Made by a program: the position numbers and the translations under genes. Positions 60,649 through 61,479 of a stretch of DNA of 64,000 nucleotides are shown piece by piece. The stretch is taken from NCBI RefSeq assembly GCF_058153355.1, contig NZ_CM177019.1. One strand, written 5' to 3'. The notes under the pieces were generated by a model. That model saw only the letters and a list, made by a program, of their open reading frames with translations, was not told the origin of the DNA and made no database searches. The first letter of the stretch is position 1. The number at the start of each line of letters is the position of its first letter.

Positions 60649-61479
60649 TTACGCGGAGCGAGACGCTGTCGCCCCTGCGCGCGGCGGCAGAGCAAATGCC
60701 ACCAGCGCCGGGATGAGATAAATAAACCAGACGGCGACTTCGCTGACGCTCGGCGCTTCCTGATAACCAAAGATACCTTCCATCAGCGTACCGAACAGCG
60801 AGTGAGTTGAGAGCACCGCGCTCATATCGAAGACGATTTCCTGAAAGTGGTTCCACAGCCCGGCTTCATGAAACGCGCGAATAGCACCTGCCGCCAGCCC
60901 TGCGGCGACGAAGAGAATAAAGAGGCTGGTCCATTTAAAAAACGCGCCAAGATTGAGGCGAATACCGCCCCAGTAGAGCAGGAAGCCGAGCACCACGGCT
61001 GTAGCAAGACCGAGCATTGCACCCAGCGGAGGCCAGATCCCGACATCTTGTTGAAACGCCGCCAGCAGGAAAAAGACCGACTCCAGCCCTTCCCTTGCAA
61101 CGGCAAAAAAGACCATCATCACCAGCGCCCAGCCATGATGATTCCCACGCTGCAATGCGCTATCGACTGCCTGTTCCAGTTGCACTTTGACGTTGCGCGA
61201 CACTTTACGCATCCAGAAAACCATCCAGGTGAGGATCACCACGGCAATCACCGCCACGATACCTTCGAACAATTCCTGCTCTTTTTGCGGAAATTCGCCG
61301 GTGGTTTCATTAATGAAGATACCCAGCCCCAGGCACAACGCAGCGGCTAGCAACACGCCAATCCACATGACACCAATCCATCGACCTCGCTGGGTACGCT
61401 TAAGATAGCTGGCAATCAGGCTGACAATCAGCGCGGCTTCAAGTCCTTCGCGCAACATAATGAGAAACGGAACAAACAT
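60649..61479 (-). CDS. efeU: ferrous iron permease EfeU (FTR1 family), intact
   Basis: ORF 60649-61488; start placed at MFVPFLIMLREGLEAALIVSLIASY (276 aa); REGLE motifs present; uninterrupted. Confidence 0.9.
   Translation of the reverse strand: MFVPFLIMLREGLEAALIVSLIASYLKRTQRGRWIGVMWIGVLLAAALCLGLGIFINETTGEFPQKEQELFEGIVAVIAVVILTWMVFWMRKVSRNVKVQLEQAVDSALQRGNHHGWALVMMVFFAVAREGLESVFFLLAAFQQDVGIWPPLGAMLGLATAVVLGFLLYWGGIRLNLGAFFKWTSLFILFVAAGLAAGAIRAFHEAGLWNHFQEIVFDMSAVLSTHSLFGTLMEGIFGYQEAPSVSEVAVWFIYLIPALVAFALPPRAGATASRSA

What the first reader, a model, noticed from the sequence alone, without database searches (positions are those of the whole stretch)
60649..61479. efeU is intact, so the EfeUOB ferrous-iron uptake system is probably functional
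In K-12, efeU (ycdN) is known to be a frameshifted pseudogene. Here there is a single uninterrupted 276-codon frame with the REGLE iron-binding motifs, directly followed by efeO and efeB, and Fur-box-like sequences upstream. This supports a non-K-12 background and functional acid-inducible Fe(II) uptake.
Basis: partly seen in the sequence, partly recalled or inferred. Interest (0 to 1): 0.3.

Follow-up and report, generated by a model that had tools for sequence, protein, structure and literature searches.

The report
Intact efeU iron permease gene
This is an ordinary, complete copy of the known E. coli iron-uptake operon efeUOB; the broken efeU of laboratory strain K-12 is the exception, so an intact copy here is expected.

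Summary
Window 60649..61479 (minus strand) is one uninterrupted 276-codon ORF. It matches the EfeU equivalog model and carries two REGLE motifs (residues 10-14 and 129-133). Intact efeO (59464..60591) and efeB (58187..59458) follow on the same strand. Alignment shows the K-12 lesion, a 1-nt deletion in codon 36 that gives a stop at codon 37. The window lacks that lesion. Its EfeU differs from the experimentally validated O157:H7 protein by one residue (A216V), with 40 nucleotide differences (dN/dS 0.007). The best Fur-box match in the whole window (15/19) lies at -78..-60, inside 87 nt that are identical to K-12 and O157:H7.

The finding is not unusual. Only 368 of 5383 complete E. coli genomes carry the K-12 deletion allele. 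The exact protein is already deposited as E. coli EfeU. "Non-K-12" understates the background: the closest genomes are a group of 19 that includes two published cryptic clade I strains. Function is inferred from sequence and was not tested. Verdict: already known, low interest.

The parts
60649..61479 (-). efeU, a 276-aa FTR1/OFeT-family iron permease. It is intact, with REGLE motifs at residues 10-14 and 129-133.
   Evidence: ORF. Pfam PF03239 at 2.8e-89. NCBIfam EfeU equivalog NF041756 at 330 bits against a cut-off of 255. No frameshift relative to O157:H7, and the K-12 1-nt deletion is absent. One amino-acid difference (A216V) from O157:H7.
59464..60591 (-). efeO, a 375-aa periplasmic cupredoxin + M75 (imelysin) protein with an N-terminal signal-like sequence ending in ANA. 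The HRLE (HxxE) motif is at residue 217.
   Evidence: Pfam PF13473 + PF09375. NCBIfam EfeO at 770 bits. Three amino-acid differences from O157:H7, dN/dS 0.02.
58187..59458 (-). efeB, a 423-aa DyP-type haem peroxidase/deferrochelatase with a twin-arginine motif (SRRRLLK). D235, H329 and R347 are present.
   Evidence: Pfam Dyp_perox_N/C. NCBIfam TIGR01412 equivalog at 614 bits against a cut-off of 428. Thirteen amino-acid differences from O157:H7, none at D235/H329/R347, dN/dS 0.05.
61539..61557 (-). Fur box (CGTAATGATAATCGCTATC), 15/19 to consensus, at -78..-60 from the efeU ATG.
   Evidence: Best match in the whole window on both strands. It lies in the 87 nt that are identical to K-12 and O157:H7.
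61517..61531 (+). CpxR-box-like sequence GCAAAGAAAAGTAAA, with 1 mismatch to GTAAA-N5-GTAAA, at -52..-38 and antisense to efeU.
   Evidence: There are only 6 sites with <=1 mismatch in the window on both strands. It lies in the segment identical to K-12/O157. Binding was not tested.
61578..61607 (-). Sigma-70-like promoter candidate: TTTACA, 18-nt spacer, TACATT. This is a consensus match only.
   Evidence: The scan found 1 site where shuffles gave a mean of 2.7, so it is not significant by itself. This stretch differs from K-12/O157.
61626..61654 (-). Intrinsic-terminator-like hairpin (13-bp stem, 8 GC pairs, then ATTTTCTCTC) after putP. It separates putP from the efeU promoter.
58102..58179 (-). 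REP-type element (Rfam naRNA4) immediately 3' of efeB, at the end of the operon.
   Evidence: 63 bits against a gathering score of 59.5.

Best explanation
The locus is a complete, conventional efeUOB operon on the minus strand. Three proteins are encoded. EfeU is a seven-helix Ftr1-like inner-membrane permease whose two REGLE motifs (helices 1 and 4) handle iron. EfeO is a Sec-type periplasmic cupredoxin/M75 iron-binding protein. EfeB is a Tat-exported haem DyP peroxidase. By homology with the E. coli O157:H7 and Nissle 1917 systems, it should import ferrous-derived iron under aerobic, iron-poor, mildly acidic conditions. Fur should repress it when iron is plentiful, and CpxAR should repress it at higher pH. 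Shown here: gene integrity, family membership, motif and key-residue conservation, strong purifying selection, and a conserved regulatory region with a strong Fur box. Inferred only: expression, regulation, transport activity and substrate form.
For: - The ORF is intact and the K-12 codon-36 deletion is absent.
- Equivalog-level HMM matches were obtained for all three proteins.
- EfeU is 275/276 identical to O157:H7 EfeU, with 40 nucleotide differences of which 39 are synonymous (dN/dS 0.007). efeO gives 0.02 and efeB 0.05.
- REGLE occurs twice. Six hydrophobic windows score >=1.6, and the REGLE-bearing segment 119-137 scores 1.59, which gives 7 predicted helices.
- EfeB keeps D235/H329/R347 and the RRR Tat motif. 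EfeO keeps HRLE.
- The Fur box (15/19) is the best match in the window, and the last 87 nt before the ATG are identical in the window, K-12 and O157:H7.
- The exact EfeU sequence is found on 24 public contigs, all named E. coli EfeU/FTR1.
- Literature: K-12 efeU is cryptic through a single-base deletion in codon 36, the gene is complete in O157:H7, and full-length EfeU is needed for Fe2+ uptake in acid medium (PMC3577903). The operon is regulated by Fur and CpxR (PMC12632272, PMC3852070, citing Cao et al. 2007 and Grosse et al. 2006).
Against: - There is no expression or transport measurement.
- The A216V substitution is untested. It is conservative, lies in the loop between helices 6 and 7, and was the only V among 16 close sequences compared.
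- The promoter region from -135 to -88 differs from K-12/O157. The transcription start was not available to me, so an effect on promoter strength cannot be excluded.
- EfeB has 13 substitutions relative to O157:H7.
- The substrate form is itself debated in the literature: Fe2+, Fe3+ after periplasmic oxidation, or haem-derived iron (PMC3852070, PMC3577903).
Confidence: 0.88

Rival explanations
1. The operon is intact and active, but its main physiological role is to extract iron from periplasmic haem (EfeB as deferrochelatase) and/or to import Fe3+ after periplasmic oxidation. On this view it does not transport free Fe2+.
For: The O157:H7 EfeUOB system was reported to promote iron release from haem in the periplasm, and EfeU orthologues are described as 'most likely Fe3+ permeases' (PMC3577903). 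EfeO may oxidise Fe2+ so that EfeU carries Fe3+ (PMC3852070). The window's EfeB keeps the haem-pocket residues D235/H329/R347.
Against: Fe2+-dependent uptake at low pH is the experimentally assigned phenotype in E. coli (Cao 2007 and Grosse 2006, as cited in PMC3852070 and PMC12632272). The two roles are not mutually exclusive. Nothing in the sequence discriminates between them.
Confidence: 0.3
2. The ORFs are intact, but the operon is silent or poorly expressed in this lineage. The cause would be the changed distal promoter region (-135..-88), or the A216V change weakening the permease. The system would then be cryptic for a reason other than the K-12 frameshift.
For: The stretch carrying the only sigma-70-like match differs from K-12/O157 at several positions. 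The window reads TCATTATCACTACATT where K-12 reads TCATTTTATAAACATT. That promoter match is no better than chance.
Against: dN/dS of 0.007-0.05 across about 5% nucleotide divergence shows long-term selection on all three genes. The same allele type is kept intact in 19 related complete genomes, all annotated as intact efeU. The proximal 87 nt with the Fur box, the CpxR-like box and the ribosome-binding site are unchanged. A216V is conservative, and this exact protein recurs on 24 contigs.
Confidence: 0.07

Closest known systems
EfeUOB (YcdNOB) of E. coli O157:H7 (Cao et al. 2007) and EfeU of E. coli Nissle 1917 (Grosse et al. 2006)
   Same: Gene order is the same (putP, then efeU-efeO-efeB, then phoH) and so are the protein lengths (276/375/423 aa). 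EfeU is 275/276 identical, EfeO 372/375 and EfeB 410/423. The last 87 nt upstream, including the Fur box, are identical.
   Different: There is about 5% nucleotide divergence, almost all of it synonymous. The putP-efeU spacer is 219 bp here. In O157:H7 strain 7409 it is about 2.7 kb and carries an extra 447-aa gene. The distal promoter region -135..-88 also differs.
efeU (ycdN) pseudogene of E. coli K-12
   Same: The locus, neighbours and promoter-proximal sequence are the same. K-12 efeO and efeB are intact, as they are here.
   Different: K-12 lacks one G at nucleotide 106 (codon 36), which puts a stop at codon 37. The window does not have this deletion. K-12 also has about 320 extra bases just after putP. 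The K-12 deletion allele is found in 368 of 5383 complete genomes.
efeUOB allele of Escherichia cryptic clade I strains (e.g. EC42405, 2013C-4282)
   Same: These give the closest matches. The efeB-putP block is 98.0-98.3% identical, and the efeU-putP junction is 99.3% identical to EC42405. They share the 219-bp spacer and intact genes.
   Different: The window's EfeU has V216 and A263, where EC42405 has A216 and T263. The window lacks the pgaABCD-dgcT block that EC42405 has next to phoH.
Yeast Ftr1p/Fet3p oxidase-dependent iron permease (OFeT family)
   Same: The Pfam FTR1 family, the paired REXXE motifs and the predicted seven-helix layout are shared.
   Different: The bacterial partners are EfeO and EfeB, not a multicopper oxidase. 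The relationship is distant and was not examined further here.

Membership tests
EfeU / FTR1 (OFeT) iron permease | Full-length match to the family profile above the curated cut-off | tested here: met
   PF03239 at 299.7 bits (cut-off 25.3), covering residues 1-275. NF041756 EfeU equivalog at 330.3 bits (cut-off 255). TIGR00145 at 350.8 bits (cut-off 303.8).
EfeU / FTR1 (OFeT) iron permease | Two REXXE iron-handling motifs in transmembrane helices 1 and 4 | tested here: met
   REGLE at residues 10-14 and 129-133, each inside a hydrophobic segment.
EfeU / FTR1 (OFeT) iron permease | Seven transmembrane helices | tested here: met
   The Kyte-Doolittle 19-residue scan gave six segments >=1.6, peaking at residues 5-23, 38-56, 70-88, 152-170, 185-203 and 248-266. 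Segment 119-137 scored 1.59. This is a hydropathy estimate only. No solved homologue was found by sequence.
EfeU / FTR1 (OFeT) iron permease | Uninterrupted reading frame, collinear with a functionally validated EfeU | tested here: met
   Gapless 831-nt alignment with O157:H7 efeU and 275/276 amino-acid identity. The K-12 deletion is absent.
EfeUOB tripartite system | efeU followed in one operon by efeO (cupredoxin + M75) and efeB (Tat-signal DyP peroxidase) | tested here: met
   The genes share a strand with gaps of 57 and 5 nt.
EfeUOB tripartite system | Fur-dependent iron repression, with a Fur box at the promoter | tested here: met
   Met at sequence level only. A 15/19 Fur box at -78..-60 is the best match in the window and is identical in K-12 and O157:H7. 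Binding and repression cannot be tested here.
EfeUOB tripartite system | Acid induction through CpxAR | tested here: inconclusive
   One CpxR-box-like site with 1 mismatch lies at -52..-38, in the conserved segment. The published sites from Cao et al. 2007 could not be read.
EfeUOB tripartite system | Iron uptake activity at low pH | not testable with these tools
   This needs 55Fe uptake or growth assays.

The most novel reading that the evidence does not exclude
The efeB-efeO-efeU-putP block is a lineage-specific (cryptic clade I type) allele, more than 5% diverged from all E. coli sensu stricto. It is the most diverged stretch of the part of the window that was compared. It has 13 EfeB substitutions and an altered distal promoter. 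This could mean the block was exchanged by recombination, or that it is regulated or tuned differently in this lineage.
Probability: 0.15. Interest if true: 0.15.

Novelty: already known. Interest (0 to 1): 0.06.

Why it matters
It matters little. An intact efeUOB operon is the normal state in E. coli, and it predicts one additional route for iron uptake under aerobic, acidic, iron-poor conditions. Its value here is as annotation: the strain is not K-12-derived, and it most likely belongs to the minority lineage that includes cryptic clade I strains.

Tried and rejected
- I tried to read Cao et al. 2007 for the mapped transcription start and the Fur and CpxR sites. The paper is not held, so the promoter elements remain consensus-level.
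- A PDB sequence search for a solved EfeU/Ftr1 relative found none.
- I asked whether the window is a different Escherichia species, because of the 93-94% identity to most E. coli at efeU-putP. This was rejected: the rest of the compared part of the window (from about 24 kb on) is 96-99% identical to K-12, and all exact protein matches are named E. coli.
- I asked whether the divergence of the efe-put block is a gross outlier. Its dS (0.16-0.31) is the highest in the window but is continuous with other genes such as pyrC at 0.21. I therefore do not claim a foreign import.
- The second Fur-like site (12/19) and the sigma-70-like match are at chance level.
- I did not run the large homologue, structure or metagenome searches. 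They could not change the verdict on a gene whose exact product is already catalogued.

Full report
**Observation**

The coordinates given, 60649-61479, are exactly one ATG-to-TAA open reading frame of 276 codons on the minus strand. A GTG three codons upstream could extend it to 279 aa. RefSeq annotation of the same gene in related genomes uses the ATG. The frame has no internal stop.

The product matches several family models:
- Pfam FTR1: PF03239, 2.8e-89, residues 1-275.
- NCBIfam EfeU equivalog: NF041756, 330 bits against a cut-off of 255.
- TIGR00145: 351 bits against a cut-off of 304.

REGLE occurs at residues 10-14 and 129-133. A hydropathy scan gives six clear hydrophobic segments plus the REGLE-bearing segment 119-137, which is the expected seven-helix layout.

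**Operon**

efeO (59464..60591, 375 aa; cupredoxin + M75 domains; EfeO models at 770 and 479 bits) starts 57 nt after efeU. efeB (58187..59458, 423 aa; DyP N and C domains; TIGR01412 at 614 bits against a cut-off of 428) starts 5 nt after efeO.

EfeB carries the twin-arginine motif SRRRLLK and keeps D235, H329 and R347. These are the residues I recall from the O157 EfeB structure paper, Liu et al. 2011, which is listed in the references of PMC9174327. EfeO keeps an HRLE (HxxE) motif and a signal-like N-terminus.

putP (61699..63207) lies upstream on the same strand. A 13-bp-stem terminator-like hairpin (61654..61626) separates it from efeU. A REP-type element (Rfam naRNA4) sits just 3' of efeB.

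**Comparison with K-12 and a validated EfeU**

I fetched three reference loci:
- K-12 strain C600, where efeU is annotated 'frameshifted'.
- O157:H7 strain 7409.
- The closest genome, EC42405.

In the four-way alignment K-12 alone lacks one G at nucleotide 106 (GGATT-GTG against GGATTGGTG). That falls in codon 36 and gives a stop at codon 37. [quoted passage not shown]

The window has the G. Its EfeU differs from O157:H7 EfeU only by A216V. That is 40 nucleotide differences, 39 of them synonymous, with dS 0.22 and dN/dS 0.007. efeO gives 0.02 and efeB 0.05.

**Regulatory region**

The best match to the 19-bp Fur consensus in the entire window, on both strands, is CGTAATGATAATCGCTATC (15/19) at 61539..61557, which is -78..-60 from the ATG. 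No other locus exceeds 13/19.

The 87 nt before the ATG are identical in the window, K-12 and O157:H7. This segment contains the Fur box, a CpxR-box-like GCAAAGAAAAGTAAA (1 mismatch; 6 such sites in the window) and the ribosome-binding region.

Further upstream, from -135 to -88, the window differs at several positions. The only sigma-70-like match lies there and is no better than chance. A second Fur-like site (12/19) is also at chance level.

Fur and CpxR control of efeUOB, and its low-pH Fe2+ uptake role, are taken from the literature (PMC3852070, PMC12632272, PMC9600279, all citing Cao et al. 2007 and Grosse et al. 2006). I could not read Cao et al. itself.

**How unusual is an intact efeU?**

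It is not unusual. A 70-nt K-12 probe spanning the deletion matches exactly in 368 of 5383 complete E. coli genomes; the three exact matches listed are laboratory strains (ER1709, CJ236, MG-phbCAB-3-6). In the other 5015 it aligns at 95-99%, and every full-length example listed spans 71 nt, consistent with the extra base being present.

The exact EfeU protein of the window is already in NCBI on 24 contigs, named E. coli EfeU/FTR1. The exact EfeO, EfeB and PutP are also catalogued. A public contig (SRR31441161) is 100% identical to window 55429-63458, and GCA_043012465.1 differs by 1 nt over the overlapping ~8 kb.

**Background of the strain**

Over the collinear part of the window that was compared (from about 24 kb on), per-kb identity to K-12 is 96-99% outside the efeB-putP block. 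It falls to 92.6-95.5% across efeB-efeO-efeU-putP. dS there is 0.16-0.31, against a median near 0.1 for 26 other genes.

Across the 5-kb efeB-putP block the complete genomes are bimodal. Nineteen fall in the 95-99% identity band (the listed ones run from 96.7% to 98.3%), and the other 5400 lie at or below 94.6%. Many of the same strains are the nearest neighbours over mdoH-ghrA, at 98.7-99.2%.

This group includes EC42405 and 2013C-4282. PMC10100065 lists both among its complete cryptic clade I genomes, and PMC9203756 uses EC42405 as the outgroup to E. coli. The window therefore most likely comes from cryptic clade I or a close relative, which PMC10100065 treats as a sister lineage of E. coli sensu stricto. 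This rests on nearest-neighbour identity only, not on a phylogeny.

**Mechanism**

Shown here:
- Three intact genes with equivalog-level family membership.
- Conserved motifs and key residues.
- Strong purifying selection.
- A conserved Fur-box-bearing proximal promoter.

Inferred by homology:
- Fur represses the operon when iron is plentiful, and CpxAR modulates it with pH.
- EfeO and Tat-exported EfeB act in the periplasm.
- EfeU moves iron across the inner membrane through its REXXE motifs.

Whether the transported species is Fe2+, Fe3+ made by periplasmic oxidation, or haem-derived iron is debated in the literature (PMC3852070, PMC3577903). Sequence cannot settle it.

**Verdict**

The feature is a catalogued, typical allele of a well-studied operon. 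Novelty: already known. Interest: low.

Noticed in passing
window 55479-56718: The pgaABCD operon and dgcT are absent. They occupy about 8 kb between the tRNA-Ser region and phoH in both EC42405 and K-12. In their place is only a 228-aa DUF2726 ORF (55486..56172, minus strand). The same arrangement occurs in GCA_043012465.1 and SRR31441161. The strain probably cannot make PGA biofilm polysaccharide.
   Followed up: partly
window 37621-39048: An IS4-family insertion (448-aa transposase at 37635..38981, minus strand; Nterm_IS4 + DDE_Tnp_1) lies between msyB/yceK and mdoH. It is absent from EC42405 and K-12 at this site.
   Followed up: partly
window 58000-63200: efeB-efeO-efeU-putP is the stretch most diverged from K-12 (92.6-95.5% per kb, against 96-99% elsewhere; dS up to 0.31). 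Among 5419 complete genomes the identity is bimodal: 19 at 96.7-98.3%, including clade I strains EC42405 and 2013C-4282, and the rest at <=94.6%.
   Followed up: partly
window 61480-61698: The putP-efeU spacer varies in length between lineages. It is 219 bp here and in clade I strains. K-12 has 542 bp, with about 320 extra bases immediately after putP. O157:H7 strain 7409 has about 2.7 kb with an extra 447-aa hypothetical gene on the opposite strand. Only the proximal ~135 nt are alignable, and only the last 87 nt are identical.
   Followed up: partly
window 56766-56959 (+) and 58102-58179 (-): There are two Rfam hits. Ysr251, an antisense RNA family, overlaps the 3' end of phoH. naRNA4, a REP-derived nucleoid-associated RNA family, lies just downstream of efeB.
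   Followed up: no
window 54947-55480: A tRNA (Rfam RF00005; annotated tRNA-Ser at the matching position in EC42405 and K-12) is followed by tandem repeats of about 180 bp. These correspond to the repeats annotated as RtT sRNA in K-12. They border the site where the pga/dgcT block is missing.
   Followed up: no
window 4420-4588, 6449-6785, 28500-28549, 49255-49346: Rfam gathering-level hits to SraB sRNA, the rne 5' UTR element, the PyrC leader and ES056 sRNA (just upstream of csgD). These are ordinary E. coli features.
   Followed up: no
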